This document shows positions 8,214 to 28,300 of a stretch of 38,692 nucleotides of DNA, piece after piece. The notes beneath the pieces are model-generated. The model saw only the letters and a list, made by a program, of their open reading frames with translations, made no database searches and was not told where the DNA came from. Made by a program: the position numbers and the translations under genes. The number at the start of each line of letters is the position of its first letter. The first letter of the stretch is position 1. Source of the stretch: a virus (lineage: Duplodnaviria; Caudoviricetes); IMG/VR virus record IMGVR_UViG_3300020441_000430, positions 1 to 38,692 of that record. One strand, given 5' to 3'.

Positions 8214-9331
8214 TTTTTATCTTTTGCATCTAGATAAGCCGCTATTGCCATCTTTCTAATTTTTGAATCTGATTTACCTTTAAACTGAGGTGCATCTGAT
8301 TTTCTGAAATCATCTATGTAATCACCTGCATCATCTTTCTTTGGGTCTAACTCCATAGTTAGTGTGCTTAATTGTTGAATTATTGTCATGAGTGTTGGTT
8401 GTGGTATAGATGCAAGTATCTCTGCTTGTTGTTTTGATATACCTTTAATCTTATCTAATTTTTTCTTGACTTTAGGCATTACTTTTGCTTCGTTTTTTGG
8501 CACACAATTTGGCACCATTTTACCACCTTTCTTTTTCATACCAACTTGTTTGTGAGTATCCCAACATGCCTCGTCTACTTGTTCAGACATTCTTAGAAAC
8601 ATTTTACCTTTTTCTTGTTTCTTATCTGTTGCAGTCATACCAACCATCTTTGCAATACTATTGATATATTTCATACCTGCTTCTGCGTTCTTCTTATATC
8701 TTTTACCCATTTCGGATTTAAGTTTCTTCGTGATTACACCAAGAACTTGGTCAACACCTGTGACTAGTTTACCCTCATGTAGATCATCACCATCTGGTGT
8801 GTAATCCATAACTATAGTAGAACCTGTTTCTATACAATCAGACAATGCAAACTTAAAGTCTCTGGTCTTTTTGTTTAGATCATCTAATGTTTCTCTTTGT
8901 TCTGAACCTCTGATCTTAGATTTAGTTCTGATAATTAAATTTTGTAGTTTATCTGCGTTCTTGTATTCTTTTACAAATCGATTTACTATTTTTGGAGGTA
9001 ATGTATCTGCCTCTGTTGCGTTAGGATTAGAGTATGTGACTTCGTTTACTACTTCTTCGCCATACATTGCTTTGAATTTCTTAGTGTGTTTAGATGGTTT
9101 TGTTTTTTTCATCTTACCATCTTTGTCTTTATCGCCTGGTGCAGGTTTGTATGCGTTTGGATTATCATCAGACATACTCGCACCTTTCTTGAAATGTGCA
9201 TCTCTGGCATCTTTTTTATCTTTCTTTACGCCTGAGTAATATTTTTTTGGTTGAGTTCCTTTTTTATCATCGACATCGGGGTCTTGTGCGACTCTGCGTA
9301 TTTTTTCTCTTAGTAAGTCTAATCTGTTCAT
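8210..9331 (-). CDS. multi-module head-internal-like protein
   Basis: 373 aa; modules QPKKYYSG..KTKPSKHTKKFK, CW...Q.GMKKK.GK.VPNCVP and YIDDF.KSDAPQF.GKS separated by xxE motifs. Confidence 0.6.
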   Translation of the reverse strand: MNRLDLLREKIRRVAQDPDVDDKKGTQPKKYYSGVKKDKKDARDAHFKKGASMSDDNPNAYKPAPGDKDKDGKMKKTKPSKHTKKFKAMYGEEVVNEVTYSNPNATEADTLPPKIVNRFVKEYKNADKLQNLIIRTKSKIRGSEQRETLDDLNKKTRDFKFALSDCIETGSTIVMDYTPDGDDLHEGKLVTGVDQVLGVITKKLKSEMGKRYKKNAEAGMKYINSIAKMVGMTATDKKQEKGKMFLRMSEQVDEACWDTHKQVGMKKKGGKMVPNCVPKNEAKVMPKVKKKLDKIKGISKQQAEILASIPQPTLMTIIQQLSTLTMELDPKKDDAGDYIDDFRKSDAPQFKGKSDSKIRKMAIAAYLDAKDKK

Positions 9332-9339
9332 ACTACTAT

Positions 9340-10632
9340 TTATCTCTTTTTAAGGTTTAATTGTGCTTCTTTCCATGCAGTTGCATTTTTGTTACCAGGA
9401 AATGCAGAAACCCATGTCATCATCTTAGAGTATAGTCTAGTAGTTTTTTTCTCTAGCGCAGATAAAGTATCGTCATTTGTGATTGTCATGAAATCTTTAC
9501 CAAACAATGTCATCATAGCTTTCATATTCTTTTGAACTTTTTCCCACTCACCTTGAACAATTGCAGGCGCAAGTTTTCTTGGTCTTGCCTCGTTTCTCTG
9601 TTGTGCAAACTCTAAACTTGTATTTACAAAGATCATTTTAGATTCATAACCTAATGCATCTAATTGTTTCTTATAGTTTCTAATTTTAGTTGCTCTTGCA
9701 GATGTTGTATCAAAAATTACACCTAATCGACCTGCGAGATAACCATCTAAAGCTTTTGCAGTTAGATTTTTTGCCCTTGTTCTGATAGGTTCTTTGACTG
9801 GTTCAGGCGTTGTTCTCAAATCTAAACTAAGACCTGCCTTTTTTAAACCATTTTCAAATGCTTTGTCTGAGTTTACCTTTTTTAAACCTAAAGTTGATAG
9901 TGATAGACCATCAACGACTGTAGATTTACCAGAACCAGGACCACCCATAAGAAATACTGCCTTGAATATGCCTGGGTCATATACACCCTCTGTAATCATG
10001 TCTTTCATCATATATTCAGGTAATGTTCCTTCTGCGATGCCCATGCCTTTACGGACATCTTTGTATAATTGTTCTGCCTCTCTAGTATTTCTGGTCGGCA
10101 CACCTTGTTTGAATGAATCTAAGTCGCCCTTTTCTGCGAATGCTCTCATCTTACTTGCACTCATGCCTGATACATCATCTGCATCTGCATCTCTCTCACC
10201 TGCACTAACGATTTCTATATTATTAAACTTATAAAAACCATGACGACCTTTTACTGAGTTATATTTCTTTAGTAATGTATCAAACTCTCTGATTCTATCT
10301 GAACCTACAACCATGTATATGTCTCGATATCCTTGATTGTATAAAGCAGTTGCGATATCAAATACAGTTCTTGCACTCACATCTGGCACACCTATTTTTT
10401 TACCAAAAAACTTTCTGAGATATTTTACTTTGACTTTATGTGGTAAAGGATTCTTTTTCTTATCATTAGAATGTGATGTAAATATCATCGGGTCACCACC
10501 TGCCGTTCTCGCAACTTTAGATAATCTCTCTGCTAATTTTGCATGACCTGTTGTGGGTGGGTTAAAGCGACCAAAAGAAAAGACTGCTGGCCTATCTTTT
10601 GCTTCTCTTAAAAATTTGTGATATGTCTTCAT
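9340..10632 (-). CDS. cytidyltransferase-like nucleotidyltransferase fused to P-loop (zeta toxin/PNK-like) kinase
   Basis: FGRFNPPTTGH (HIGH-like), VVGSDR and MSASKMR motifs; C-terminal FLMGGPGSGKS Walker A and later RN..R.R lid motif. Confidence 0.8.
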   Translation of the reverse strand: MKTYHKFLREAKDRPAVFSFGRFNPPTTGHAKLAERLSKVARTAGGDPMIFTSHSNDKKKNPLPHKVKVKYLRKFFGKKIGVPDVSARTVFDIATALYNQGYRDIYMVVGSDRIREFDTLLKKYNSVKGRHGFYKFNNIEIVSAGERDADADDVSGMSASKMRAFAEKGDLDSFKQGVPTRNTREAEQLYKDVRKGMGIAEGTLPEYMMKDMITEGVYDPGIFKAVFLMGGPGSGKSTVVDGLSLSTLGLKKVNSDKAFENGLKKAGLSLDLRTTPEPVKEPIRTRAKNLTAKALDGYLAGRLGVIFDTTSARATKIRNYKKQLDALGYESKMIFVNTSLEFAQQRNEARPRKLAPAIVQGEWEKVQKNMKAMMTLFGKDFMTITNDDTLSALEKKTTRLYSKMMTWVSAFPGNKNATAWKEAQLNLKKR

Positions 10633-10955
10633 TTATTCTTTTCCTTAGTCTTCTTCTTCATCTTGTCTATGTATTTTCTATACACAGCGGCTTCTGATGT
10701 TTTACCCATTTCTCTTGCTCTTTGTTCCATTGCAACAGCGGCCTGTATTTTGTGTGCATGTTTTCTGCCTGAGTTTTCAATTTTCTTTACACTTGCCTCA
10801 GCAGTTGCAACATCTTTAAAACCTAAACCTTGTATTGTATCTTTAGGATTTTCATCTGTATATAAATCAGAATGTTTCTTAGAATTTGCAGGTTGACCTT
10901 TCTTTCTAGGTATTCTAGGATTATCTTCTTCTGTATATTCTCTAAACGACTTCAT
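10629..10955 (-). CDS. conserved hypothetical protein with capsid-targeting-like leader
   Basis: MKSFREYTEE start; DLYTDENPKDTI.GLGFKD motif. Confidence 0.6.
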   Translation of the reverse strand: MKSFREYTEEDNPRIPRKKGQPANSKKHSDLYTDENPKDTIQGLGFKDVATAEASVKKIENSGRKHAHKIQAAVAMEQRAREMGKTSEAAVYRKYIDKMKKKTKEKNK

Positions 10956-11701
10956 TTGTTCCTAATATTTCCTATTGCATCTGTGTATGCAAGTGTAAGA
11001 GGTAATAAATCTTTTATTGGTAAATCTATCTTCATACAATTAACTTTAATTTTTGGGTTAATTAAAACAGTTGTCAAGAATCTGTGATGTCCATCAATAA
11101 TTCTATTGTCTTTAGAGACTATGAAGTTATTGAACTTAGATGTTAAAAAGTTTTTAGATGATTCTACGCCATCTTTAGATACTTTTTTAATTGATTTATC
11201 AAAGTATATCTGTGCCTGTATAGGTTTTAGATTACCAACTGCAATCTTCTCATTTGATACTTTTACTATATCATCTTTTGGGTCACCATCTGCTTTTGCA
11301 AGACCACTGCTAACCCATACTTTACCTGTCTTTTGATCTAGACCTTGTGGATATGGGTCATCGGGAAGTTCGTTCTTTGCAAAAGGTTTGTTAATGTCTA
11401 TCGAACCTGATGATAATCTTTTCTGTAATAAATTTACATCTCTATTATCAATAACAGGCATATCTTTTCTTTGTGCAAATCCTAACTTCGCACTTCTCTG
11501 TGCAAGTGTATAATTCTTGTCAAAATCAGGAAGTTCTTTATCTAATTCAAAACCATTTGCACTAAATTTTTTTTCTGCAAAACTTCTTGCAATATTTAAA
11601 GATGTAGATAATATTTCTAATTTACCTGCTTCTGCACCACCTTTTTTCTCTGCAAGTATGGTTGTTAATTCGTCTGTTATATATTCTAGAAAACTAAACA
11701 T
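10952..11701 (-). CDS. ParB/Sulfiredoxin-like domain protein
   Basis: L.P.Q and IVS.D..IIDGHHR motifs; likely start ATG 11701 (MFSFLEYITDE) overlapping the upstream stop. Confidence 0.65.
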   Translation of the reverse strand: MFSFLEYITDELTTILAEKKGGAEAGKLEILSTSLNIARSFAEKKFSANGFELDKELPDFDKNYTLAQRSAKLGFAQRKDMPVIDNRDVNLLQKRLSSGSIDINKPFAKNELPDDPYPQGLDQKTGKVWVSSGLAKADGDPKDDIVKVSNEKIAVGNLKPIQAQIYFDKSIKKVSKDGVESSKNFLTSKFNNFIVSKDNRIIDGHHRFLTTVLINPKIKVNCMKIDLPIKDLLPLTLAYTDAIGNIRNK

Positions 11702-12909
11702 TATTTGTCCCAATTTTTAGCAACTGTAAAGTTATTTAGTGAGAACTCCATACGATCTACCAACTTCACTGCCTTTCCTTCTTTATCAATCGCAACATAT
11801 CCTTCTGGATTTACTGTCTTTAACCCTGTGTCTGTTCTTACAAATGTGCCAACTGATTTTGCCTTGTTTAAACCTTTTATTACTATGTCTTTTGCGATTA
11901 CTAATTGAGTTTGAAATATGGTCAATGCATCTATAAAAACTCTCATTGCAAGTAATTCTCTTCTCAGTTGTTCACCCATTTTTCTTTTCTGTTCTTTAGT
12001 TTTTTCTAATTTAACTTTACCAACTACACTTTTCTTCCAATAGTCATCAAAATGTTTTAGATATGCCTTGTAAGATAAATCAAATTTACCTTTACGAATC
12101 TGTGTATTGACATATGTTTTGTATGTGGCGCCTGCACCTTTTTTTGCAATGGTTTCTTGCACTTTCTGAAACTTAATTAGTGTTGCTCGTTTGATTTTTT
12201 GAAATGCTTTACCTGTATTTGTTAGAGATTTTGTTAATGCAAGAGTTTCTTTTGCAGTAAGTGTAGAATTACCCGATACATCTTTATATGATGCATCATC
12301 TAACCAGATATCGGAGGAGGCTCCAAGTGTTGAAATATCTACGCCAAAACTGGCACTTAAATCTGCAATGGTGCCACCAGAATACGATGTATGAAATACT
12401 ATTCCGTATTTTGCGTTGTCGATTGTTTGACCTAATTTGCTATCTTTTTGTATTGCGTATAGTATTGTGTTAGGTTGAAATGTGATGTAGTCTACATCAT
12501 CTATTGTTTGTTCTTTCTTATCACTATCTGTAAACATTAGATCGCCTTGAAATATCTTATCACCCCATGATAATTTTGATAGATACTTATATGATTCTAA
12601 GAACTTAGTCTCTAGATCACCAGATAACTCTGATGCATTCTTGATTTCTGATTCTGATGTGTAGAATAAAGGTTCTTTATTGAATAGTGATTTCTTTGCG
12701 ACAAAGAATCTGCCGTCTTCTGGATGTTTTCCTGCCCATATTGCAGGTGCACCATCCCATTTAACAGTCATGTTGACTTTTGACTTAGAGTTGCCTTTCA
12801 TCATATCTCTAAGTGATCTCACAAAATTGATAGCTGCACGACCGCCATCGATACCATTATTAATGATTTCGTCTTCTAAGTGTTCTAAATGTAAATTCTT
12901 GACTGCCAT
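11701..12909 (-). CDS. DUF6267-like protein with ATP-dependent (RNA) ligase-type motifs
   Basis: HLEHLED start; TVKWDG (motif I KxDG), QGDLMF, PEGYV (motif IV), VKLV (motif V). Confidence 0.7.
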   Translation of the reverse strand: MAVKNLHLEHLEDEIINNGIDGGRAAINFVRSLRDMMKGNSKSKVNMTVKWDGAPAIWAGKHPEDGRFFVAKKSLFNKEPLFYTSESEIKNASELSGDLETKFLESYKYLSKLSWGDKIFQGDLMFTDSDKKEQTIDDVDYITFQPNTILYAIQKDSKLGQTIDNAKYGIVFHTSYSGGTIADLSASFGVDISTLGASSDIWLDDASYKDVSGNSTLTAKETLALTKSLTNTGKAFQKIKRATLIKFQKVQETIAKKGAGATYKTYVNTQIRKGKFDLSYKAYLKHFDDYWKKSVVGKVKLEKTKEQKRKMGEQLRRELLAMRVFIDALTIFQTQLVIAKDIVIKGLNKAKSVGTFVRTDTGLKTVNPEGYVAIDKEGKAVKLVDRMEFSLNNFTVAKNWDK

Positions 12910-12940
12910 AGTAATATATCACAAAAATGTGTAATACTAC

Positions 12941-12946
12941 TATTTA
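12941..12946 (-). promoter_or_regulatory. late promoter core heading the ligase-like operon
   Basis: TAAATA; the same core recurs at gene boundaries 658-663, 1068-1073, 9337-9342, 13379-13384, 13566-13571, 29299-29304, 38348-38353. Confidence 0.55.
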
Positions 12947-12950
12947 TGAT

Positions 12951-13358
12951 TTAATCGACCGCTGGACAAGGATTCTGAAATATACCAACACATGGGTCAG
13001 GTTCACCCTCATCTATTATCTTTTGTATTCTAGGAACTTTAGTATTATATTGATCTATGATTGTCTGAATATTTGAGGCCTCAGCATATAATTCATCATC
13101 TGATAAATCTTTAACAGCGTTCCACATACTAAACAATTGTAGATCATTAGAGTCTGCTGAACCATCTGATGTTGGATTTGCAGTTCTCCATGCCTCACAA
13201 AAACCTTTTATACCAGTATCAGTTGTGCATGTAAATCCACAATAAGTTCTTTCTACTGCTGATGTAGAATCTTTAACAGCCAATAAACCCTCTTTTAAAT
13301 TAGTATAGAAACCTATTTTGTAATCGTAATCTGCCTTTATGTCTGTGTATACACCCAT
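12951..13358 (-). CDS. hypothetical protein
   Basis: 135 aa; AGGAG SD; TAAATA at 13379-13384. Confidence 0.6.
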   Translation of the reverse strand: MGVYTDIKADYDYKIGFYTNLKEGLLAVKDSTSAVERTYCGFTCTTDTGIKGFCEAWRTANPTSDGSADSNDLQLFSMWNAVKDLSDDELYAEASNIQTIIDQYNTKVPRIQKIIDEGEPDPCVGIFQNPCPAVD

Positions 13359-13381
13359 AATTTCTCCTGTAATATTACTAT

Positions 13382-13555
13382 TTAGTTTTTTGAGAGCGGG
13401 CGTGAGTGTAATTTGTCTTCTATTTGAGCAATTTTTTGTGAGACGATTTCTACTTTGCGTTCCTCACCATTTTGTTTGAATGAACGAAGTTCTCTCTTTA
13501 GTTGAACCTTTTGAGATATTAGATTTATTACTTCGTTCGATTTCAAGTTTTTCAT
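13382..13555 (-). CDS. small coiled-coil hypothetical protein (57 aa, not in ORF track)
   Basis: Manual translation MKNLKSNEVINLISQKVQLKRELRSFKQNGEERKVEIVSQKIAQIEDKLHSRPLSKN; TAAATA at 13566-13571 just upstream. Confidence 0.6.
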   Translation of the reverse strand: MKNLKSNEVINLISQKVQLKRELRSFKQNGEERKVEIVSQKIAQIEDKLHSRPLSKN

Positions 13556-13589
13556 AATGTAGTATTATTTATCCCTACCATTATATAAC

Positions 13590-13618
13590 AAAAAAACCAC
13601 CTTGAAAAGGTGGTTTTT
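13590..13618 (-). terminator. intrinsic terminator closing the large non-coding transcript
   Basis: Minus strand AAAAACCACCTT-TTC-AAGGTGGTTTTTTT: hairpin plus U-tract, symmetric so possibly bidirectional. Confidence 0.75.
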
Positions 13619-14825
13619 AAGGTAGTTTGTGTTTTAATATGTCGTCTGACTCTACTAACAATCGACATGTGCAATTATTGTTCTAAAGTTTTGAATGGGT
13701 CTATTAGAACTCGGCGCTCCGCCGAAACACTTAGACCAACCTTACGGTTCAACAAGACCTACATCCATCCAATACCTAATAAGCAGTGTTCTGATCTTGT
13801 CTATCTATTTAAAGTAGGGGAGGGGGCTCCTTCTCCTCACCATTCTTGCGCTACCCAGACTGCTTTAAATAAAATTCAATAAGGTGAAGTTCGATTGAAA
13901 CTACTCGGCGTTTCGAACCACTGTTTCGTTTCCATCCTGAGTGAGATATTAAATCTCCCTACTAACTGTTAGACGACTATACTCTCTTATTCTCCAAGAA
14001 TCTAACACTGCAAGCAACCATCGTTTTGCATCTCACATCTATAACTTATCGTCATACTCTAACTCAGGAGTTTTTTCTACGCTCGGATTCTGTATAGGTC
14101 TCCGACTATCTGATTGTTGCACGCTTGAGTCTCATCTCTTGTTTTCACAACAACCAGTCAACACGCTTCCATCTTGTATTCGTATATCACCACTCTATCA
14201 CCCTAGCAACTCTAAATTAACCAATCTACTGACAGGAATGCATAATGCCCTCGCCATGAGTCAACCGATGATAGTTCTTTTGTCAACATTCTTGCTACTC
14301 AACTGGACTCCTCGATCTGGTCTCATTCTGACTTAGGTTAGTTTCAGAACTCAATCGACATCGGTGTCTTGCAATTCTCACAATTTTTGAAACTGATACT
14401 CTTCGTAATTCACCATGGTGAATCCTCAAAGTTTTAACAATGAGTTCAGTTAAAGAAATTATATGACCGCTCTCGCTCGAATAGTGAAGTAGTTAATCAG
14501 TTATATTGGGAAGCACTAGGGCAACCCTCACTGTTGTGTTCTTACCCACAAACTCTACGATTTACGATAAGTCTTATGCTCTATGTTCAACCTCTATTTC
14601 AAGGCCAATGGCAGTTCAGAAAGATTAGGACCACTTCTCTACACACCTCTGTGTGGCAGGAATCGAACCTGCGATCTCTCAGCGACTTTTGAACTTCTAG
14701 TGACTGTTTCTAATGATAAGCAACCCTCTCGGTGTCATGTGGACTAAATCCTTATCAAGTAAAGTTTCTCTAATTTTTAAAAGGTCGCACTTTCAAGCCC
14801 TTTGATGTTTAAGTGTTATCTCACT
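13590..14825 (-). ncRNA. candidate large (~1.2 kb) structured non-coding RNA
   Basis: No ORF of 60 aa or more on the minus strand; strong promoter upstream and terminator downstream; many hairpins, GNRA loops, a T-loop arm and long-range complementary segments. Confidence 0.7.
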
Positions 14826-14831
14826 ATGGAT

Positions 14832-14861
14832 AGTATACTAAAAAGTTGATGTCATTGTCAA
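14832..14861 (-). promoter_or_regulatory. sigma70-type promoter driving the large ncRNA
   Basis: TTGACA-18 nt-TATACT on the minus strand. Confidence 0.75.
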
Positions 14862-14878
14862 CCTTTTGGCGAAAATAA

Positions 14879-15037
14879 TTACACTTTTTTTTCTTTAGAT
14901 TTCATCCATTCTTCAACTATGAAGAATGATTCTTGTTTGTCTAAATCAAACATATCTCTCAGCACTCTAGGTGCCTCAAACATATTTATTTTACCAGACT
15001 CTTGTATGTCATCCAGGAACATGAAGAAAGTTTCCAT
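14879..15037 (-). CDS. small conserved phage protein (52 aa, not in ORF track)
   Basis: METFFMFLDDIQESGKINMFEAPRVLRDMFDLDKQESFFIVEEWMKSKEKKV; LD..ESG..NMF.A motif common in phage small proteins; ATG overlaps upstream stop; GGAG SD. Confidence 0.65.
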   Translation of the reverse strand: METFFMFLDDIQESGKINMFEAPRVLRDMFDLDKQESFFIVEEWMKSKEKKV

Positions 15038-15501
15038 TAAAAATCTCCGTCTGCAACTTGAACTACAACAAAACCCTCATCTCTCCACATGTCAACAACA
15101 CATTGTCTATCATCGAAGATAAGATCGATTTTGCCACCCATATCTAAAAACTTGTTTGCAATTTCTCTTTTGAACTCAACATCACTTCTGTAATCACCGT
15201 CAGGTCTTAAAAATAAACCTTTGTGACCATCACCAATCCATTCTGAAATTTGACTCTCGGTGATCTCCCTTTGTGATTCGTTTCTTGCACTAAAGAATGC
15301 AACTTCATCTCCACTTGCGATGAATCTTTTTGCAATGTCACACACCCATTGAATAGGTGTATCGTTTACTGTCTCTTCTCTAAATCTGTCCCAATCTTTT
15401 GCTTGTGAACCATCAACAAAACATCTACGATGTTCACAATCAGCAATAGTGCCGTCTACATCGAAGATAATTGTTTGATTAATAATTCTTTCTTTTCTCA
15501 T
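15037..15501 (-). CDS. HAD-family phosphatase resembling the PseT/Pnkp 3'-phosphatase domain
   Basis: IIFDVDGT, FSAR, LR..GD.R.D...K and FDDR motifs; start moved to ATG 15501. Confidence 0.8.
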   Translation of the reverse strand: MRKERIINQTIIFDVDGTIADCEHRRCFVDGSQAKDWDRFREETVNDTPIQWVCDIAKRFIASGDEVAFFSARNESQREITESQISEWIGDGHKGLFLRPDGDYRSDVEFKREIANKFLDMGGKIDLIFDDRQCVVDMWRDEGFVVVQVADGDF

Positions 15502-15728
15502 TAGTGAAACTCCTTCCATTCACCATCTATAGAAATTTTTTCTATATGCATTTTACCGATAGGGTTCATAAAACCATGTTCTGGTAATTTAGAACACATT
15601 AAGTCCCAATCATCGCCATCGCCTAAAGCGAGTTCTGATAATACATCAGGTATAGGTATCTCAATAACAGCACCGTCATTGACAACGCCATTGTAAATTG
15701 GAAAACCTTTTATTTTTACTTTTTTCAT
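15501..15728 (-). CDS. hypothetical protein
   Basis: 75 aa directly downstream of a sigma70 promoter. Confidence 0.55.
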   Translation of the reverse strand: MKKVKIKGFPIYNGVVNDGAVIEIPIPDVLSELALGDGDDWDLMCSKLPEHGFMNPIGKMHIEKISIDGEWKEFH

Positions 15729-15734
15729 ACTGTT

Positions 15735-15764
15735 AGTATATCAAAAAGTGAGACCTATTGTCAA
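15735..15764 (-). promoter_or_regulatory. sigma70-type early promoter
   Basis: TTGACA-18 nt-TATACT, same architecture as 14832-14861. Confidence 0.7.
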
Positions 15765-16231
15765 GCGTATTTGGCGTTGCCTCTAAGTGCAAAGTATAGA
15801 CCACCAACATATAAACTGACATGTAGATAGTCTTTATAGATTACATCCCATAGACTAGCAGGACTCAGAATCCATATAACACCTGTTGCAATACAAGTCA
15901 TAGTGATACCACTAAAACGAGTCAACAAATCTCCTAGTTCTTCTGTAATATTTCTAAATTTAGGTGAATATCTGCCGATTCTTGCAATAAAGAAATGTCT
16001 AGCATGCCATGGTATGAGACCAAAAAGTCCACCTACAATCAAACCTATAGCAGAACCAATCTCACCATATGTGACAAACCACCATACGATATATGGCAAA
16101 CCCCATGCCTCTGCTGTTGCACCTGTGACAGGAAGTTTACTAAGACCTTGTTGCAAGAACATTGCAGATAATGGTATTCTTAAAAAGAATGTGGCAATCG
16201 GTGCCGATATTTTAGGTATTATCTCTCTCAT
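15761..16231 (-). CDS. DoxX-family membrane protein
   Basis: LRIPL...F...G..K and E...AIGLI.G motifs; several TM segments; start moved to ATG 16231. Confidence 0.7.
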   Translation of the reverse strand: MREIIPKISAPIATFFLRIPLSAMFLQQGLSKLPVTGATAEAWGLPYIVWWFVTYGEIGSAIGLIVGGLFGLIPWHARHFFIARIGRYSPKFRNITEELGDLLTRFSGITMTCIATGVIWILSPASLWDVIYKDYLHVSLYVGGLYFALRGNAKYA

Positions 16232-16664
16232 ATGACCAATAATAATGTTCGTTCTCTTCGATATAAGGACCTTTTTCAAATCCCCATTTTGTCATTATAC
16301 CATTTGCAGCTAGATTATCTTTATGTGTGTATGCATGTATTCTATCATGATATTGTGTGACGATAGGCATTATTAAATCCATAACACCTTGATTTTGATA
16401 TGTAAAATGTGTGCATACATCTATTGCTAAACATGATAATTCATCATCAAGGTCATCCACAAGATGAAAATCATTCACACATATAGAACCAATCCAATAA
16501 GCAATAGCAATATCATTTTCATCTACTACTACAAATGAGTCTGTTAAATTTTTACAAATAAACAACCATGTGTCAGCACTAAATCTTTTCTCACTTGAAT
16601 GACTTTCATGTTGAACTTTCCAACATGCCTCCCAATCTTTCTCCTGTATTCGTCTAACTTGCAT
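16212..16664 (-). CDS. GNAT-family acetyltransferase
   Basis: YQNQGV acyl-CoA motif and N.AA......WGF motif; likely start ATG 16664. Confidence 0.7.
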   Translation of the reverse strand: MQVRRIQEKDWEACWKVQHESHSSEKRFSADTWLFICKNLTDSFVVVDENDIAIAYWIGSICVNDFHLVDDLDDELSCLAIDVCTHFTYQNQGVMDLIMPIVTQYHDRIHAYTHKDNLAANGIMTKWGFEKGPYIEENEHYYWSYERDNT

Positions 16665-16839
16665 TTGCCATGATTTCATCTAACTGATCTGGTGTCAAAT
16701 CAGTTTTCAATTCAACAGTAAATGTATCTTCATTTTCATTGTGTGTCACAATAAACGGTATCTCGGTACCTGCCTCTTGTAATATACCGATGTTCTCGTT
16801 GAACTGTCGATAGTCATCTCTACTTAAAGTCGCAATCAT
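16654..16839 (-). CDS. hypothetical protein
   Basis: 61 aa; overlaps both neighbours; AGGAG SD. Confidence 0.55.
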   Translation of the reverse strand: MIATLSRDDYRQFNENIGILQEAGTEIPFIVTHNENEDTFTVELKTDLTPDQLDEIMANAS

Positions 16840-17465
16840 ATTGGTAAAACTCCTCTTTCTTCTACTTCTTTATTCTCAGGAAATAGTGTAGAAGGTTCAT
16901 CTATTTCCCCACTCTCAACTTTCTGATAGTGAACAAAATCTCTCCAGAAATCTTTGATTGATTTATGTATGTAAACTTTTGTTTTGCCAATCCAATTACC
17001 TTTTTTATCTCTGTAAATATATTTGTATTCATAAGTTATAGAACCGTCAGCATTTCTACTATGAATAGATGCAGGTCTCCCTGTATAATAACATCTAGGT
17101 GCTGTGACTTTCTTACTCATTGTTTCGCCTAACAAATTTGTTACCTGTTCACCTTTTAGATCGACTAGAGATTCTTTAAACTCTGACTTTTCAATCAAGT
17201 CTAAGACTTCTTCTGGTTCTACTTGCCATGTCTCTGAACCACTTGTAGGTTGACCAAATTCATTTTCCATTAAGTGTTTAAGTTTATTCTCGCACATTGT
17301 TAAAGAGTGCATAGATTTACTTGTATCTATTCTTAAAAACTCTTTAAGACCACCAGCAGTCGATCTGTGTGTCAACATTCTATCGTCTATGTCTTCAGCT
17401 TTTCCTATTTTGACATGGGGAAGTCCATCTTCATCCCAATTACAAAAACCATATAGACCTATCAT
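16836..17465 (-). CDS. GIY-YIG/T5orf172-like nuclease-domain protein
   Basis: LYGF...VKIG.A....DR...E....H....SETW pattern in N-terminal half. Confidence 0.55.
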   Translation of the reverse strand: MIGLYGFCNWDEDGLPHVKIGKAEDIDDRMLTHRSTAGGLKEFLRIDTSKSMHSLTMCENKLKHLMENEFGQPTSGSETWQVEPEEVLDLIEKSEFKESLVDLKGEQVTNLLGETMSKKVTAPRCYYTGRPASIHSRNADGSITYEYKYIYRDKKGNWIGKTKVYIHKSIKDFWRDFVHYQKVESGEIDEPSTLFPENKEVEERGVLPI

Positions 17466-18739
17466 CGACCAACCTCACCAAGATATTTTGCTTTCGTTTC
17501 TGCCCATGTCATGAAACAAACATCATCATAGAACAATGTCTCTGTAAGGTTTGTTCTATCATTCTTAACTAGATTATTAATTCTCTTTCTTGCATACTTT
17601 TCTTTCCAGAGTTCTGATAGTGCCTCTGTTGATGTGTCAAAAGACTTGACTAAATCTTTTTCTTCTATCTCACCTCTAAGAAACTCTCGTGAGTTATCAT
17701 AAAGTGTAGAATAATATATGCCTCTTTGATGTTCTGACTTAATAATATCTTTTGGTATTTTAAGTTGTGAATAAATGAACTGTCTCATACGATTTCTATG
17801 GTCTCTCTTTAATGTTTGTCCGTTTTCTCTCTTTGCAACATATAACATAAAGTATCTATCATTGTAATGTTTCTCTGCATATTTTAACATTTCTTTCTCT
17901 GTTTCTTTTGTCAACTCATATGATAAAGAACCTTGACTGTAACCCATTTTCTTCCAGTGTTTGAGTCTATCGTATTGTGATAAACCACCTGTTTTAGATT
18001 TACCATACAGTGATGTAGTTGTCACACTAACAAGTTTATCACCGTAGTTTTCTTGCCATTGATTCTGTATATCATCTGATAAACAAAGTAATGCAAGTAA
18101 TTTACCACCTGTGTAATTGAAACCTAGTGGTTGTAATGGCACTATTGTAGAACCAATACAAGAGTTGTTTAGTTTGCCACTATTTGTTTTGTATTCTCTT
18201 TCCCACCCTATAAAATTATCTCTTGGTGTTAGATCAATAAAATCACCTGTGATACAAATTACACCTAGATATTTACCTGAGACTTTATCTCTGACTAAGT
18301 AATGTAGATTACGCCCTATGTTTGAACTATTCTTCATAGTAGAAGTAAATGTTCTTACACAATTCCATTTCTCTGTAAGAGAACCAGCAGATTGTCTGTC
18401 TTTAATTGAATCTGTATAAATTAATTCTGGTTCTAGTTTCTCAAAGTCCATAGGGTCTTCTGGAAACCAAATGTTATTCTTACTCTCATTGATGAGTTTA
18501 ATATGGTCTTCATTGATTAATTGTTTCTCAGCACCAAAAAGTGTGCCCATTTCTTGTGAAGGATATCTTTGTTGTATTTCTAGATACTTTTGATAGAGTG
18601 TATATTCACCAACAGACATCTTAGAAACATATGATAAGTCATCTATAATCTTTTGTCGAAGATCATACTTAGACATAACTTCTTTCTCGACATAGTTTGC
18701 CTGATAGTCATCATATTGTTTCTGAACAAATGGTTCCAT
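17462..18739 (-). CDS. DUF4338/DruA-like protein
   Basis: GR.L.YLV.D..SGKYLGVI, PRD.FIGW, IVP.QPLGFNY.GGKLLAL and TTSLYG...SQY motifs. Confidence 0.7.
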   Translation of the reverse strand: MEPFVQKQYDDYQANYVEKEVMSKYDLRQKIIDDLSYVSKMSVGEYTLYQKYLEIQQRYPSQEMGTLFGAEKQLINEDHIKLINESKNNIWFPEDPMDFEKLEPELIYTDSIKDRQSAGSLTEKWNCVRTFTSTMKNSSNIGRNLHYLVRDKVSGKYLGVICITGDFIDLTPRDNFIGWEREYKTNSGKLNNSCIGSTIVPLQPLGFNYTGGKLLALLCLSDDIQNQWQENYGDKLVSVTTTSLYGKSKTGGLSQYDRLKHWKKMGYSQGSLSYELTKETEKEMLKYAEKHYNDRYFMLYVAKRENGQTLKRDHRNRMRQFIYSQLKIPKDIIKSEHQRGIYYSTLYDNSREFLRGEIEEKDLVKSFDTSTEALSELWKEKYARKRINNLVKNDRTNLTETLFYDDVCFMTWAETKAKYLGEVGR

Positions 18740-20112
18740 TATACTTTAAAGTCTCTAAACTTTTCACTCCTATCAAATACTGGTGTATCATCATTGATAT
18801 CAATACTATCAACTAATTCTTCTTGTGCCTCTTGTTCAACATCATATAGTTTCATTCTTGACCTATCAATACCGATTACAAATCTTTTGAATATGGTTGG
18901 GTCATTGTATCTATTCTTCAATTGTTTAACTACTAACTGGTCTAACTCTTCTAGTTCTTCTGATGTAATTAATGCAAACATTAAGTCAGCAGTTGCAGGC
19001 AGACCAAAAGATTCTGATGTATCTTCTAAACCAATATCTGTAGAACCATAGCCACTTCTTGTAGTTTGAGTTGCAGATACCATTGGCACATCATGTTCAA
19101 CTGCAAGACCTCTTAATTCTTCGGCGATACTCTTAACTAATGTGTAAGAGTTTGCACCTGAACCTGGTCTTATTCTATGTGATGCACAAATGTTTAGATA
19201 ATCTATAAAGATAATATCAGGTCTAAAATCTTTCTTGATGTTTAGTTCTTGTAGTAAATGTCTAAAATGACCTACATGAGCGGCCGCTGTAGGATATTCT
19301 TTTACTATAAGTTTACCCTTTGTTTTGTTTTTGATTCTTTGTATCTTCTTGTCATACTCTTTCTTAGAAACATCTGGCAGTTCTTTCATTGGCACATTCA
19401 TTGTGTTCGCATCGATTCTCTCTGCGATTCTTTCTTCACTCATCTCCATAGTAATGTAAAGAACATTTTTACCCATGAGTAAACAATTAGATGCCATATG
19501 GCACATGAACAATGATTTACCAACACCAGTTCCTGCCAGACAAATGTTTAGTGTCTTATTAGGCAGACCACCTTTTGTAATCTTATTGAAGTATTCAAGA
19601 TCAAAAGGCATCTTCTCTTCTTCTGTATTGTAAAACTCAAATCTCTCTTCAGCATCTTCTAACTGGTCGTGACCAATATGTGTATCAAAAGATACTGAAA
19701 GAGCGTCTTTGAGTAAGTCTGGTATTTCACCAGTTGACCTTTTAGATTTCTCGTCTAAGACTTCAATACTGTCCATGACGGCAATGTAGATTGCTCTATC
19801 TTTGCACCACTTCTCAGTTTCATCTACGAGCCAATCTAAGGGTGTATCATCTTTTTTGATATTCTCTACAAGTTGTTTTGAAGACTTGACTATTGCATCT
19901 CCTTTCGAAGTCACATTATCAAGATTAATGAGAAGTGCTTCAACTGTAGGACTTTTAGTATACTTATCGAAATAGTTTACTATCTCTTCAAATACTAATT
20001 TTTCAGATGATTCGGTGAAATACTCAGACTTGATAAAAGGGATTACCTTTCTAGTATAAGTATCATTCTGAATCAGATTCTTGATTATCGTGTTCTCGAT
20101 TCTCGCTTCCAT
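18739..20112 (-). CDS. 41: T4 gp41-like replicative DNA helicase
   Basis: AGTGVGKS Walker [37 protein letters not shown]. Confidence 0.95.
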
Positions 20113-21115
20113 ATTTAAAATATCCGTTTACAACTTTTTCTAATTTTTCCATTACATCTTCTGTGAAGTATTTTTCTGGATTGTTATTAATAGTTTTACC
20201 AAACTCAGTTTTGCCTGTAGGTAATAACACTCTAGTAGATGATTTTTCAAAAACACCACTATCTAATGCAAGATCAAGCAGACCATAATATCTATCAAGA
20301 CCTTTATCATATGTTAATCTAACATCTACGATTCTGTTTTCAACAGTTAATCTAGATTTTGCATTCTTACAATGTATTATATTACCGACTACTTCTGTTC
20401 CTTCTTTTTCTTTTCTCTTAGAAAGATATATGATTGATGAAGCGGCATATTTTAAACCTGAACCACCACCCATTTCTTTTGTAGGGAACATAGAACCAAT
20501 AACATCGTATGTGTGATTAGTCACTATCATAGGGACTTTTGCACGACCAAGTTTTAAAGTTAAAACTCTGAATGCACCTTTGACAATCTGAGCACGAGTC
20601 ATATCTCTTGTTTCTTTACCAGCCGCTGTGTCTTCAATTTCTTTTGTAGTTGATAACATACCAAGTGAATCTAAACAAAACATCATAGGCGGTCTTTCTG
20701 ACTCGTCTGTTTCAAGATATTTGTCGAGAATTGATATTGATTGTTGTCTGAACTCTTGAACAGTGACAACAGGAACAATAATCATTCTGTTTGAATCGAT
20801 GCCTCTCTCTTCAATCATCTCTTTAGTGATTGCAGATTCAGACTCGAAATAGATTACGGCAGACTCAGGATTATCTTCTAAGAATTGTTTACACATTCCT
20901 AATGCGAAGAAAGTTTTACCTGTCGCAGACTCACCTGCGATTGCTGTAATTTTGTTTGCTGGAAGTCCACCATAAAGTGAACCAGATAATAGAGCGTTGA
21001 ATATATAACTCCCTGTGTCTACAAAGGAATCAACATCACCAGCAGATACGCCCTCTGCAACGATATTTGCATACTCGTTGCCAGATGCTTTTACTAAATC
21101 TTTAATAAATGACAT
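20063..21115 (-). CDS. uvsX: UvsX RecA-like recombinase
   Basis: [33 protein letters not shown]; canonical position between gp43 and gp41. Confidence 0.95.
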
Positions 21116-26243: not shown

Positions 26244-26535
26244 TCTCTTCCCTCTTCATTTGCTCTTGCATGAGTTCAACTAATATATCACCCATGAGTT
26301 TATTAAGTTCGTTATTATTTAGTAATTCTTCAATTACTTCTTCTGTTGCCTCAACACCGTTCGGCACTCTTCTTATAGTTCGTTTAAAGTTGAGTTGAGG
26401 TTCACCATTTACGAACTGCACATCACCATATTGATAGACTAATCCTTCCCATTCACCAGATACTAATTCTATACCTGCATTTTCTTCGTAAGGATTTTCT
26501 ACTACACGATAAACTTTTTTGAATAACATTGTCAT
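26212..26535 (-). CDS. conserved T4-like hypothetical protein
   Basis: 107 aa; I....G.W.G.VYQYG.V and MGDIL motifs, typical of the gene upstream of gp43. Confidence 0.65.
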   Translation of the reverse strand: MTMLFKKVYRVVENPYEENAGIELVSGEWEGLVYQYGDVQFVNGEPQLNFKRTIRRVPNGVEATEEVIEELLNNNELNKLMGDILVELMQEQMKREENEQRDSKTGN

Positions 26536-27647
26536 CTTATTATATCTATGTCTGGATTTTTATTCCAAACTTCTAACTCCGTTCTCAATCTATTTTCTGA
26601 TTTAAGTTTACTAAATCTTTTACCTGCTAACTTTTTCCACCAAGTGACTATCTCTTCTAATTCAAATCTATCATAGTTAGGTCTTTTAGTTAGTGTATCT
26701 GTTTCTAAGTTAAGATAGTCTGCAACATTATCATATCCGTATGTAGATATAAATGTTCTTTTCTTTTCTGTAAGGCCTTTTGCATCTACGAGTGCTGTCT
26801 TAAATGTTTCTAAATCTTTTCCTTCTAATGAGTTTCTAATAATAGAAATCATTTTTGTTTGTGTTTTTAATTTTCTACTACTTGCATCTTCATCTACAAG
26901 TGGTCCTTTGTTTCTATCTTCAAACCACTTTCTAAGATCGTGGTATTTTTCATCGTTGATTGCAGGCACAAAATCTGATAATGTTAGACCTGCATATCTT
27001 AGAAAAGGTTTCATGCCATCATATTGTGATACTTGTTTTGTAGAACCATATAATGATGTTGTTTCAAACATACAGAAATCTGTATTATATTTTTCACTTA
27101 GAGTTCTTCTTGCAAGATGTGAACAACAAATACCTGCAAGTAATTTACCACCAAGATAATTAAAACCAAAAGGTTGTGTTGGCACTATTATAAAACCCAT
27201 GATAGTGCTATCATTAAATCTCTTCATGACTTCCATGTTTGTTGTCTGTAATGGTCTGCCTAAGAAATCATTTCTAGGTTTAGAGTTAATAGTTGGTGAA
27301 CCGAATCTAATAAAACCTACAATCTTGTTTGTGTTTACCTCGTAGACAACCCACTTTAAACTTTTACCTGGCACTGACTTTTCTATTGCATGTGATGTGA
27401 CTATCTCTAGATAGTTATCATACATATCATTTGATACTTCTCTACAAACAAATTGCATGTCTTCTGGATGCATTGTAAAGTCTTGAAACATCTCGTCTTC
27501 TGGTCCATAACCAAACAAAGGTGTTGGTATATCTTCCATTCTTTCAAGTTTTACTTTACGAAGATAATCATCAATGCGACCAAAGTTCTTATAATAATCT
27601 ATAAAAATCTGTGATGCAAATTGGGCGTCTTGTTTGTTAAGTATCAT
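26532..27647 (-). CDS. second DUF4338/DruA-like protein
   Basis: PG..L...V.E..T.KIVGFIR.GSP, IVPTQPFGFNYLGGKLLA and ETTSLYG...SQYDG; paralogous to 17462-18739; start moved to ATG 27647. Confidence 0.7.
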   Translation of the reverse strand: MILNKQDAQFASQIFIDYYKNFGRIDDYLRKVKLERMEDIPTPLFGYGPEDEMFQDFTMHPEDMQFVCREVSNDMYDNYLEIVTSHAIEKSVPGKSLKWVVYEVNTNKIVGFIRFGSPTINSKPRNDFLGRPLQTTNMEVMKRFNDSTIMGFIIVPTQPFGFNYLGGKLLAGICCSHLARRTLSEKYNTDFCMFETTSLYGSTKQVSQYDGMKPFLRYAGLTLSDFVPAINDEKYHDLRKWFEDRNKGPLVDEDASSRKLKTQTKMISIIRNSLEGKDLETFKTALVDAKGLTEKKRTFISTYGYDNVADYLNLETDTLTKRPNYDRFELEEIVTWWKKLAGKRFSKLKSENRLRTELEVWNKNPDIDIIR

Positions 27648-27692
27648 AAAAAAACCTGATACCATTTTACAACAGTATCAGGTCCTTGTCTA
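27648..27692 (-). promoter_or_regulatory. promoter overlapped by an inverted repeat / terminator-like hairpin
   Basis: TAGACA-17 nt-TAAAAT; arms ACCTGATAC (27654-27662) and GTATCAGGT (27675-27683) followed by a U-run on the minus strand. Confidence 0.55.
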
Positions 27693-28227: not shown

Positions 28228-28300
28228 TGGAGCGAGATAGAAGAGTTGCACTTCTATCTCCTAACTGGTAGTTAGGTATTTTGCTTTAAACTAATCTCGC
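28228..28300 (-). tRNA. atypical tRNA-Gly, anticodon ACC, CCA encoded
   Basis: GCGAGAT/ATCTCGC acceptor stem plus U73-CCA; anticodon arm CCTAA-CTACCAG-TTAGG; T-arm AGAAG-TGCAACT-CTTCT; D-loop lacks GG. Confidence 0.8.

What the first reader, a model, noticed from the sequence alone, without database searches (positions are those of the whole stretch)
13590..14861. ~1.2 kb ORF-free, highly structured transcription unit: candidate giant ncRNA
In an otherwise gene-dense genome, a TTGACA/TATACT promoter (14832-14861) and a terminator (13590-13618) bracket ~1.23 kb with no credible ORF. Local hairpins: AACC-GUAA-GGUU (13738-13749), UUGU-GAAA-ACAA (14139-14150), 13711-13725, 13943-13957, 14642-14655 and a 16 nt palindrome (14408-14423). 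Enclosing helices: 13806-13814/13863-13871, 13935-13942/14062-14069, 14204-14209/14292-14297, 14340-14346/14388-14394, 13639-13644/13663-13668. A possible ~750 nt-range helix joins 13677-13694 with 14426-14441. This resembles large ornate phage RNAs such as GOLLD and ROOL but is longer than their typical sizes, so it may be a new class.
Basis: partly seen in the sequence, partly recalled or inferred. Interest (0 to 1): 0.88.

Follow-up and report, generated by a model that had tools for sequence, protein, structure and literature searches.

The report
Giant tRNA-framed marine phage RNA
Uncultured marine phages carry a conserved non-coding gene of about 1,000 letters, present in ocean RNA data and matching no catalogued family, whose predicted fold is a rearranged tRNA frame holding a 700-letter insert and two self-matching loops that likely let copies join into a larger particle, which may bind host tRNA-handling proteins.

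Summary
The gap is a real non-coding RNA gene, but it is modular rather than one 1.2-kb fold. A leader plus core (14825-13886) is conserved in 34 distinct sequences of marine T4-like phages, with 62-69% identity between three clades and at least four gene contexts; the aligned full-length copies keep the promoter, and a terminator follows wherever the contig reaches it. The 3' 270 nt is a swappable tail. Structure rests on covariation (63 pairs changed on both sides against 30±6 in shuffles), not folding energy (z -0.45). Fourteen marine RNA runs hold it. Rfam GOLLD and ROOL models miss it while finding controls. All 22 non-redundant copies carry a circularly permuted tRNA-like domain: variable loop, T arm, closed acceptor hairpin, D arm. 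Its anticodon-like stem is completed by a strand about 700 nt downstream. Two loops stay self-complementary while changing sequence (CAUG/AUAU/CUAG; CG/GC), the signature of the intermolecular bridges in OLE and GOLLD. Best reading: a new family of large phage RNAs that likely self-assembles and displays a tRNA elbow. Assembly, strand, ends and partner are untested. The scan had not noted this family elsewhere; it had noted other, unrelated large phage RNAs.

The parts
14832..14861 (-). sigma-70-type promoter (TTGACA, 18 nt, TATACT)
   Evidence: TTGACA/TTGCAT..TATAAT-like elements upstream of the aligned full-length homologues
14812..14825 (-). predicted 5' end hairpin (start site inferred from the -10 box)
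   Evidence: sequence; a different hairpin sits at the same place in the other clades
14761..14803 (-). leader pseudoknot: stem 14803-14799/14784-14780, loop 14793-14789 pairing with 14765-14761
   Evidence: 4 of 5 and 3 of 5 pairs changed on both sides, 91% and 98% canonical; kept in L003/L022, which lack the core
14714..14757 (-). leader junction: stem 14757-14751/14720-14714 with inner hairpins
   Evidence: 95% canonical, 2 of 7 pairs two-sided; inner stem 100%, 1 of 3
13886..14697 (-). conserved core (812 nt), closed by helix 14697-14691/13892-13886
   Evidence: 7 bp, 100% canonical, one two-sided change
14630..14682 (-). permuted tRNA-like domain: anticodon-stem 3' strand 14682-14678, variable loop 14677-14673, T arm 14672-14656, closed acceptor hairpin 14655-14642, U8/R9 14641-14640, D-stem 5' strand and D loop 14639-14630
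   Evidence: 22 of 22; coordinates; G15:C48 in 22 of 22; YrlA model's only match in 5 of 5 records, below cut-off
13937..13947 (-). distal strand that reads as tRNA positions 21-31: it can complete the D stem (4 bp, invariant) and the anticodon-like stem (5 bp)
   Evidence: D stem 100% Watson-Crick but invariant; anticodon-like stem 96% canonical, one two-sided change; rival partners exist
14555..14579 (-). nearly invariant block; 14572-14566 can pair with 14050-14044, and 14558-14555 pairs with 14492-14489
   Evidence: the first is 100% canonical with no two-sided change, the second has one (L126)
14408..14423 (-). self-complementary hairpin with a palindromic 4-nt loop, a predicted symmetric kissing or dimer site
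   Evidence: palindrome of 10 nt or more at this place in 21 of 22; centre CATG 10, ATAT 8, CTAG 3
13977..14097 (-). pseudoknot: loop 14097-14092 pairs with 13982-13977
   Evidence: 6 bp, 99% canonical, 3 pairs two-sided (L104 and L126 variants)
13895..13934 (-). 3' hairpin with a GAAA/AGUA internal loop and an apical loop (13919-13910) whose centre switches CG/GC, a predicted self-kissing loop
   Evidence: 22 of 22 keep the loop, CG in 6, GC in 16
13620..13885 (-). variable 3' tail of small structured cassettes (0 to about 270 nt among homologues)
13590..13618 (-). intrinsic terminator
   Evidence: a terminator follows the core or tail in the homologues whose contigs reach that far

Best explanation
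This is a stand-alone non-coding RNA gene of marine T4-like phages whose core is predicted to fold as a circularly permuted tRNA-like frame carrying a 700-nt ornate insert, and which likely assembles into homo-oligomers through two self-complementary loops and may present its tRNA elbow to host tRNA-binding proteins. Shown: conservation without a reading frame, own promoter and terminator, covarying helices and pseudoknots, the tRNA-like element order and invariant bases, the two loop switches, and presence in marine RNA libraries. Inferred: transcription by host sigma-70 polymerase from 14825 on the minus strand (0.9); a real folded ncRNA (0.97); a family distinct from GOLLD and ROOL (0.8); a tRNA-like L shape with capped acceptor end and no anticodon, so neither charged nor decoding (0.7); intermolecular kissing as in OLE, ROOL and GOLLD, giving a dimer or cage (0.6); a role as a stable, multivalent sponge or scaffold for tRNA-elbow binders such as anti-phage tRNA nucleases, modification enzymes or translation factors (0.3). 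It is accessory: most related phages lack it and some have lost the core.
For: Homologues: (34 distinct cores, three clades at 62-69%, at least four contexts, both orientations relative to neighbours). Covariation: 12 sequences, 960 columns: 63 two-sided pairs against 30.1±5.6, maximum 43, in 30 column shuffles; per helix, slid controls lower; 10 two-sided pairs against 5.6±1.0, 0 of 500 shuffles; 0-2 when slid. tRNA-like domain: U8, R9, G10, A14, G15, G18, G19, C48, TTCGA T loop in 22 of 22; the D-arm half matches phage tRNA-Met(CAU) genes; ARAGORN finds no tRNA in family loci; the distal pattern arises in 0.055% of shuffles strictly, 1.5% with wobble. [quoted passage not shown] RNA: 14 RNA runs, 11 studies; mismatch-free contigs tile 13674-14947 in X1 and 13681-14669 in X2, with patchy cover of flanking genes.
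Against: There is no energy signal in a single sequence. Only three clades exist, so few independent changes; many core helices are invariant and carry no information. The distal strand has rival partners: 14036-14032 pairs with 13945-13941 (100% canonical), and a local D stem is 98% canonical; so the insert may lie after the D arm rather than in the D loop, or the D arm may not form. L086 keeps only 3 of 5 anticodon-like pairs, L126 and L155 keep 4. L087 lacks the main palindrome. Two self-kissing loops suffice for dimers or chains, not necessarily a cage. The RNA data are contigs: they show no strand, ends or level, and DNA can be in them. No partner gene travels with the RNA, so the decoy role has no direct support.
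Confidence: 0.45

Rival explanations
1. A monomeric scaffold in the manner of Y RNA: the tRNA-like domain tethers one protein and the insert another, and the palindromic loops are incidental or give only a transient dimer.
For: The element order is that of YrlA (PMC4201824 passages); the YrlA model's only match in each of 5 records is this domain; the invariant single-stranded blocks could be protein sites.
Against: No Ro60/TROVE gene in G000 or in G005 (146 kb, 81% complete); the Ro60 motif is found in 1 of 22 and not at the expected place; ten times the YrlA length; two separate loops keep self-complementarity.
Confidence: 0.18
2. A precursor processed like two-piece tmRNA: RNase P and trimming open the acceptor loop, CCA is added, and the charged RNA enters or jams ribosomes.
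For: Same permuted order; the D arm is of tRNA-Met(CAU) type; the nearest cultured relative of G005, Melnitz, carries a two-piece tmRNA (PMC9004378 passages); M. smegmatis YrlA is cut and gains CCA. Contigs of three runs stop at 14661-14686 (weak).
Against: The acceptor-like stem is 5-7 bp, often bulged, with no conserved G3-U70 or CCA; no shared tag frame; alpha_tmRNA model no match at E<=10; contigs in 4 of 4 runs cross the loop, two by more than 31 nt.
Confidence: 0.1
3. A very diverged or rearranged GOLLD or ROOL.
For: Similar size and phage setting; by eye, short words are shared with ROOL env-120 and GOLLD env-38, among them a ROOL L18-like kissing loop; such families diverge so far that my sequence-only controls were weak (E about 0.004).
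Against: The covariance models give nothing at E<=10 while finding controls at 130-329 bits; hallmark words are absent; my models find only flanking tRNAs around 8 ROOL and 3 GOLLD loci; the shared words are not in one order and are not conserved within ROOL; the 5' and 3' parts pair with each other here, unlike the separate domains of GOLLD.
Confidence: 0.12
4. The 680-760-nt insert is a self-splicing intron in the D loop of a small permuted tRNA-like RNA.
For: The insert interrupts a tRNA-like frame cleanly between positions 20 and 21; the deepest contigs lie inside it.
Against: No group I or II model hit; domain V and S-element words 0 of 22 (these two patterns are recalled); no terminal G at a fixed place; no joint from 14629 to 13948 in 4 runs; no insert-less allele among 119 loci from 49 of 64 parts of the viral collection.
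Confidence: 0.06
5. A selfish or nearly neutral mobile RNA cassette whose fold serves only its own stability or spread.
For: Patchy presence (4 full and 2 core-less among 47 loci with enough flank); it sits in a slot that other relatives fill with unrelated genes; several contexts.
Against: No ORF, transposase or reverse transcriptase travels with it; a strong own promoter and long invariant blocks across clades imply selection on the RNA.
Confidence: 0.09

Closest known systems
GOLLD RNA (Rfam RF02032)
   Same: Large (over 800 nt), ornate, phage-borne, accessory; a CG/GC switch in a self-kissing loop as in bridge B8 (PMC12286853 section 8); tRNA associations.
   Different: No model match; hallmark words absent; no tRNA gene next to it; the tRNA-like part is a permuted frame around the body, not a whole tRNA in a linker; the 5' and 3' ends of the core pair.
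ROOL RNA (Rfam RF03087)
   Same: Ornate phage RNA with pseudoknots and a 3' hairpin whose loop resembles ROOL L18 by eye.
   Different: About 580 nt against 810-1,050; no model match; conserved ROOL words absent; no tRNA-like domain described for ROOL in what I read.
OLE RNA (dimer bridge B3)
   Same: A loop whose central four bases switch between palindromes.
   Different: No Rfam match in the all-family scans; OLE is a chromosomal RNA of anaerobes and extremophiles bound to proteins.
YrlA bacterial Y RNAs (Rfam RF02553)
   Same: Order V-T-closed acceptor-D, tRNA invariants, Levitt pair.
   Different: About 110 nt; needs Ro60 and its binding motif, neither found; scores 13-21.5 bits against a cut-off of 69.
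Two-piece (permuted) tmRNA (Rfam RF01849)
   Same: Permuted tRNA-like domain with a closed acceptor end and a large insert; common in Melnitz-like phages.
   Different: Here the insert is on the D side and an anticodon-like stem is kept; no alanine identity pair, CCA or tag frame; no model match.

Membership tests
GOLLD | match to the conserved 3' domain model (cut-off 150 bits) | tested here: not met
   none at E<=10; controls Bongo 216, Rey 182 and G122 275 bits
GOLLD | hallmark words of the Rfam consensus | tested here: not met
   five of six words in 0 of 22; the sixth (19 of 22) is the tRNA D arm here; controls carry five of the six in 2-3 of 3, and one pattern matched 0 of 3 controls
GOLLD | often beside tRNA genes | tested here: not met
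   none in the family loci scanned; the window's one tRNA is 13 kb away
GOLLD | RNA-only nanocage | not testable with these tools
   only the loop switches point to it
ROOL | match to model RF03087 (cut-off 99 bits) | tested here: not met
   0 of 5 records; controls 130-329 bits
ROOL | conserved words of the consensus | tested here: not met
   five of six in 0 of 22 (controls 2-4 of 8); one loose pattern in 15 of 22
ROOL | same elements in collinear or permuted order | tested here: inconclusive
   80-column sub-profiles gave no match above reversed controls apart from the T arm, but sequence-only power is low
YrlA | V-T-AS-D order with tRNA invariants and Levitt pair | tested here: met
   22 of 22
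YrlA | score over the family cut-off | tested here: not met
   13-21.5 bits against 69
YrlA | Ro60 gene alongside and Ro60-binding motif | tested here: not met
   0 of 2 records, both incomplete; three loci not searchable; motif 1 of 22, misplaced
two-piece tmRNA | 7-bp acceptor stem with G3-U70 and CCA | tested here: not met
two-piece tmRNA | tag reading frame and model match | tested here: not met
group I / group II intron | catalytic core match; spliced product or intron-less allele | tested here: not met
   contigs drop rare forms, so absence of a joint is weak

The most novel reading that the evidence does not exclude
A new class of kilobase phage RNA built by wrapping a 700-nt folded body inside a circularly permuted initiator-type tRNA; copies join through palindromic loops into an RNA-only particle studded with tRNA elbows that soaks up host tRNA-attacking or translation proteins during infection of abundant marine bacteria.
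Probability: 0.25. Interest if true: 0.95.

Novelty: new variant of a known kind. Interest (0 to 1): 0.8.

Why it matters
Large ornate bacterial and phage RNAs are few, and the function of the cage-forming ones (GOLLD, ROOL) is an open question. This family is as long as or longer than GOLLD, turns up in many ocean RNA data sets, and has a recognisable handle that those RNAs lack: a tRNA-shaped domain with a capped acceptor end. That gives direct tests (tRNA enzymes, pull-downs, loop swaps) of the idea that such RNAs act on translation or tRNA-directed defence. It would also be a third way, after tmRNA and Y RNA, of building a big RNA on a permuted tRNA.

Tried and rejected
Single-sequence folding gave no signal. 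blastn against 50,697 phage records gave nothing for the window and only tRNA T arms for L082. One core pattern found 0 matches in GTDB genomes. Looser patterns added one divergent member (L126) and otherwise chance hits: 4 of 31, 10 of 39 (inside a protein gene), and the non-family rows. The permuted-tRNA pattern gave family members or tandem tRNA genes, apart from L504 and a few rows beside single tRNA genes. Melnitz, HTVC008M and Mosig lack the RNA: the weak hits checked are tRNAs, and gp23 is followed closely by the next gene. By-eye likeness to ROOL and GOLLD was dropped. A P7-like reading of 14097/13982 as a group I core was dropped because the G-C pair is not kept in L087-type copies. 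Contig depth (X1 225-445 over the core, 0-5 in most flanking bins) was not used to rank expression, because the runs were found with this stretch and contig depth is flat; low cover of tail and leader is likewise not evidence of processing. Literature: searches found no description of this RNA; subscription journals are mostly outside the library. In PMC10690425 (10,000 viral RNA candidates) four motifs and two contig names were not found in supplementary files 3-6, but the archives and PDFs that probably hold its alignments could not be read, so fragments may be listed there.

Full report
Setting. The window is a 38.7-kb fragment, estimated 23% complete, of a virus record. It has T4-type DNA polymerase, helicase, UvsX and RegA-like genes, and its polymerase is at most 50% identical to cultured cyanophages. 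The stretch 13556-14878 is the largest gap between minus-strand ORFs in a window that is 93% coding. A promoter at 14861-14832 and a terminator at 13618-13590 bracket it. Rfam gives nothing at gathering level and nothing meaningful up to E 10.

Homologues and modularity. Of 79 loci found through the 402-aa neighbour, 47 have at least 2.1 kb upstream. Four of these carry the RNA (three nearly identical), two (L003, L022) carry only the promoter, 80 nt of leader and the tail, and 41 have nothing like it. Patterns from the core found 28 of 28 homologues in viral contigs, 27 of 31 and 30 of 30 in metagenome contigs; many are the same contigs, and L163 matches the window over the tail and may not be independent. 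There are 34 distinct full-length cores. From 70 full-length locus copies I kept 22 below 98.5% identity; partial copies were left out. They form three clades at 62-69% identity. The gene lies in at least four gene contexts and in both orientations relative to its neighbours. In G005 (146 kb, 81% complete) it sits against the grain between the major head gene and a tail tube gene, where the nearest cultured phages (Melnitz 68.5%, HTVC008M 64%, Mosig 62% in the capsid protein) have no such gap and no match. The host is unknown; streamlined marine heterotrophs are an inference from that kinship. Between core end and terminator lies a mix-and-match tail of 0 to 270 nt. So the conserved unit is leader plus core, and the window's 1,236 nt includes a long tail.

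Structure. On 12 of the 22 sequences (960 columns with at most half gaps) the consensus fold has 63 pairs changed on both sides, against 30.1±5.6 (maximum 43) in 30 shuffles that keep each column and its gap pattern. Energy is -201 against -152.5±8.2, though column shuffling also breaks stacking, so the pair count is the better measure. Named helices in the 3' part give 10 two-sided pairs against 5.6±1.0 in shuffles and 0-2 when slid (15 sequences; the structure was chosen from these sequences, and relatedness inflates the shuffle test). Best supported are the leader pseudoknot, the helices 14533/14498, 14527/14508 and 14152/14115, the pseudoknot 14097/13982 and the 3' hairpin (three rows there had wrong coordinates, two were redone and the third in 115 and 121). 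The middle (about 14480-14200) aligns poorly. No reading frame is shared among the 10 copies listed.

The tRNA frame. All 22 copies read, 5' to 3': a five-base variable loop, a perfect T arm, a closed hairpin stacked on it (5-7 bp, covarying), U8, a purine, four D-stem bases and a D loop with A14, G15, G18 and G19; G15 and C48 are invariant. This is the order of YrlA Y RNAs (PMC4201824, passages), and the YrlA model's only match in each of 5 records is here, far below cut-off. That paper warns that tandem tRNAs mimic this pattern. Most non-family hits of a pattern scan are indeed tRNA pairs, nearly all ending in tRNA-Met(CAU), whose D arm this one resembles; family loci contain no tRNA by ARAGORN. 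A strand 681-757 nt downstream (13947-13937) reads as positions 21-31. It can complete the D stem with four invariant Watson-Crick pairs and an anticodon-like stem of five pairs (full in 19 of 22, two of them with wobble pairs; four pairs in 2, three in 1; C-G in three copies where the others have U-A). The strict pattern arises in 0.055% of shuffles. The anticodon loop is replaced by a junction with the closing helix and the 3' hairpin. Against this: a local D stem is nearly as good (98%), and 14036-14032 can pair with part of the same distal strand (100%, no two-sided change). The safe statement is a permuted tRNA-like domain with the RNA's body inserted on its D side, in the D loop or just after the D arm.

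Signs of self-assembly. At 14408-14423, 21 of 22 copies keep a perfect palindrome of 10-16 nt while the sequence changes, with centres CATG, ATAT and CTAG. A 12-mer palindrome somewhere in a shuffled copy is common (24%), so the evidence is the fixed place and the changing palindromic loop. The loop at 13919-13910 is invariant except for its centre, CG in 6 and GC in 16, with both states inside one clade. PMC12286853 (sections 6-8) uses exactly these two kinds of switch as support for intermolecular bridges in OLE and GOLLD, because adjacent bases cannot pair within one chain. Assembly here is inferred, not shown.

Expression. Eighteen public runs hold the stretch; 14 are on record as marine metatranscriptomes, from 11 studies, with shares 0.41-0.90. 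I laid 4 of the 14 (3 studies) on 9000-21000. Mismatch-free contigs tile 13674-14947 (X1) and 13681-14669 (X2) and cover most of 13652-14686 in X3 and X5, while flanking genes are covered in patches; loose ends match other clades of the family. These are contigs, so strand, ends and level are not shown and DNA cannot be excluded. No joint that skips the insert was listed. RNA ends and any processing remain open.

Comparison. GOLLD and ROOL models give no match at E 10 and do find controls. Hallmark words are missing. My profiles and a covariance model of the 5' domain hit only tRNAs flanking 8 ROOL and 3 GOLLD loci. Short words shared by eye with the sequences in that paper's Supplementary Table 4 are not in one order and vary within ROOL, but a remote kinship cannot be excluded. 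There is no Ro60 gene, no alpha-tmRNA match and no intron core. It works like the large ornate phage RNAs and borrows the YrlA/tmRNA plan, but it is a member of none.

Sources seen. PMC12286853: passages, sections 6-8, supplementary file 1 part 2, file 4 part 1 and search hits, file 3 searched; the GOLLD alignment, file 2 and the large spreadsheet were not seen. PMC12990946: abstract and section 6. PMC5737381, PMC4201824, PMC9004378: passages. PMC10690425: search listing and searches of supplementary files 3-6; its archives and PDFs could not be read and could hold fragments of this RNA. tRNA numbering, the tmRNA identity elements, intron motifs and the idea of tRNA-cleaving defence are from my own knowledge. 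Seven paper searches found no description. The scan's own index had no look-alike by sequence or place.

Verdict. A real, conserved, covariation-supported large ncRNA of a family not in Rfam 15, with an unusual permuted tRNA frame and predicted intermolecular loops. Interest 0.8. The full mechanism (oligomer displaying a tRNA elbow) stands at about 0.45, and the decoy role is the weakest step.

Noticed in passing
window 28228-28300 (-): A tRNA called Gly with anticodon ACC and a non-standard T loop; A34 anticodons for glycine are very rare in bacteria (recalled).
   Followed up: no
L003 1388-1790; L022 5000-5400: Close relatives keep promoter, leader pseudoknot, tail and terminator but lack the 880-nt core, leaving a possible 350-nt RNA.
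   Followed up: partly
window 13871-13806 (-); L082 tail: A tail cassette with a compensated closing helix and a possible pseudoknot, shared between two clades; no Rfam match. Other cassettes recur in different combinations.
   Followed up: partly
L088 1376-1503 (-), also L090, L096, L097, L104, L107: Glutamine riboswitch over the gathering score, with a 79-nt insertion in L088 and L104, back to back with the RNA's promoter and upstream of the tail tube gene in G005; like those reported for Melnitz-type phages.
   Followed up: no
L504 near 300-345: An unrelated permuted tRNA-like element with an 8-bp closed acceptor stem, not overlapping a tRNA gene; possibly a Y RNA.
   Followed up: no
L016, L018, L021, L012, L013, L040 (slot upstream of the 57-aa gene): The slot that holds the RNA in the window holds a 425-aa or a 500-aa gene in other relatives: a hypervariable site.
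   Followed up: no
window 14577-14567 (-): An invariant inverted repeat with a one-base centre, too tight for a hairpin; it could be a third intermolecular duplex or a protein site.
   Followed up: no
window 17462-18739 and 26532-27665 (-): Two genes match the same family of unknown function, phrog_19197.
   Followed up: no
window 15735-15764 (-): A second 11/12 sigma-70-type promoter, with extended -10, upstream of the polynucleotide-kinase-like gene cluster; it could read through into the RNA.
   Followed up: no
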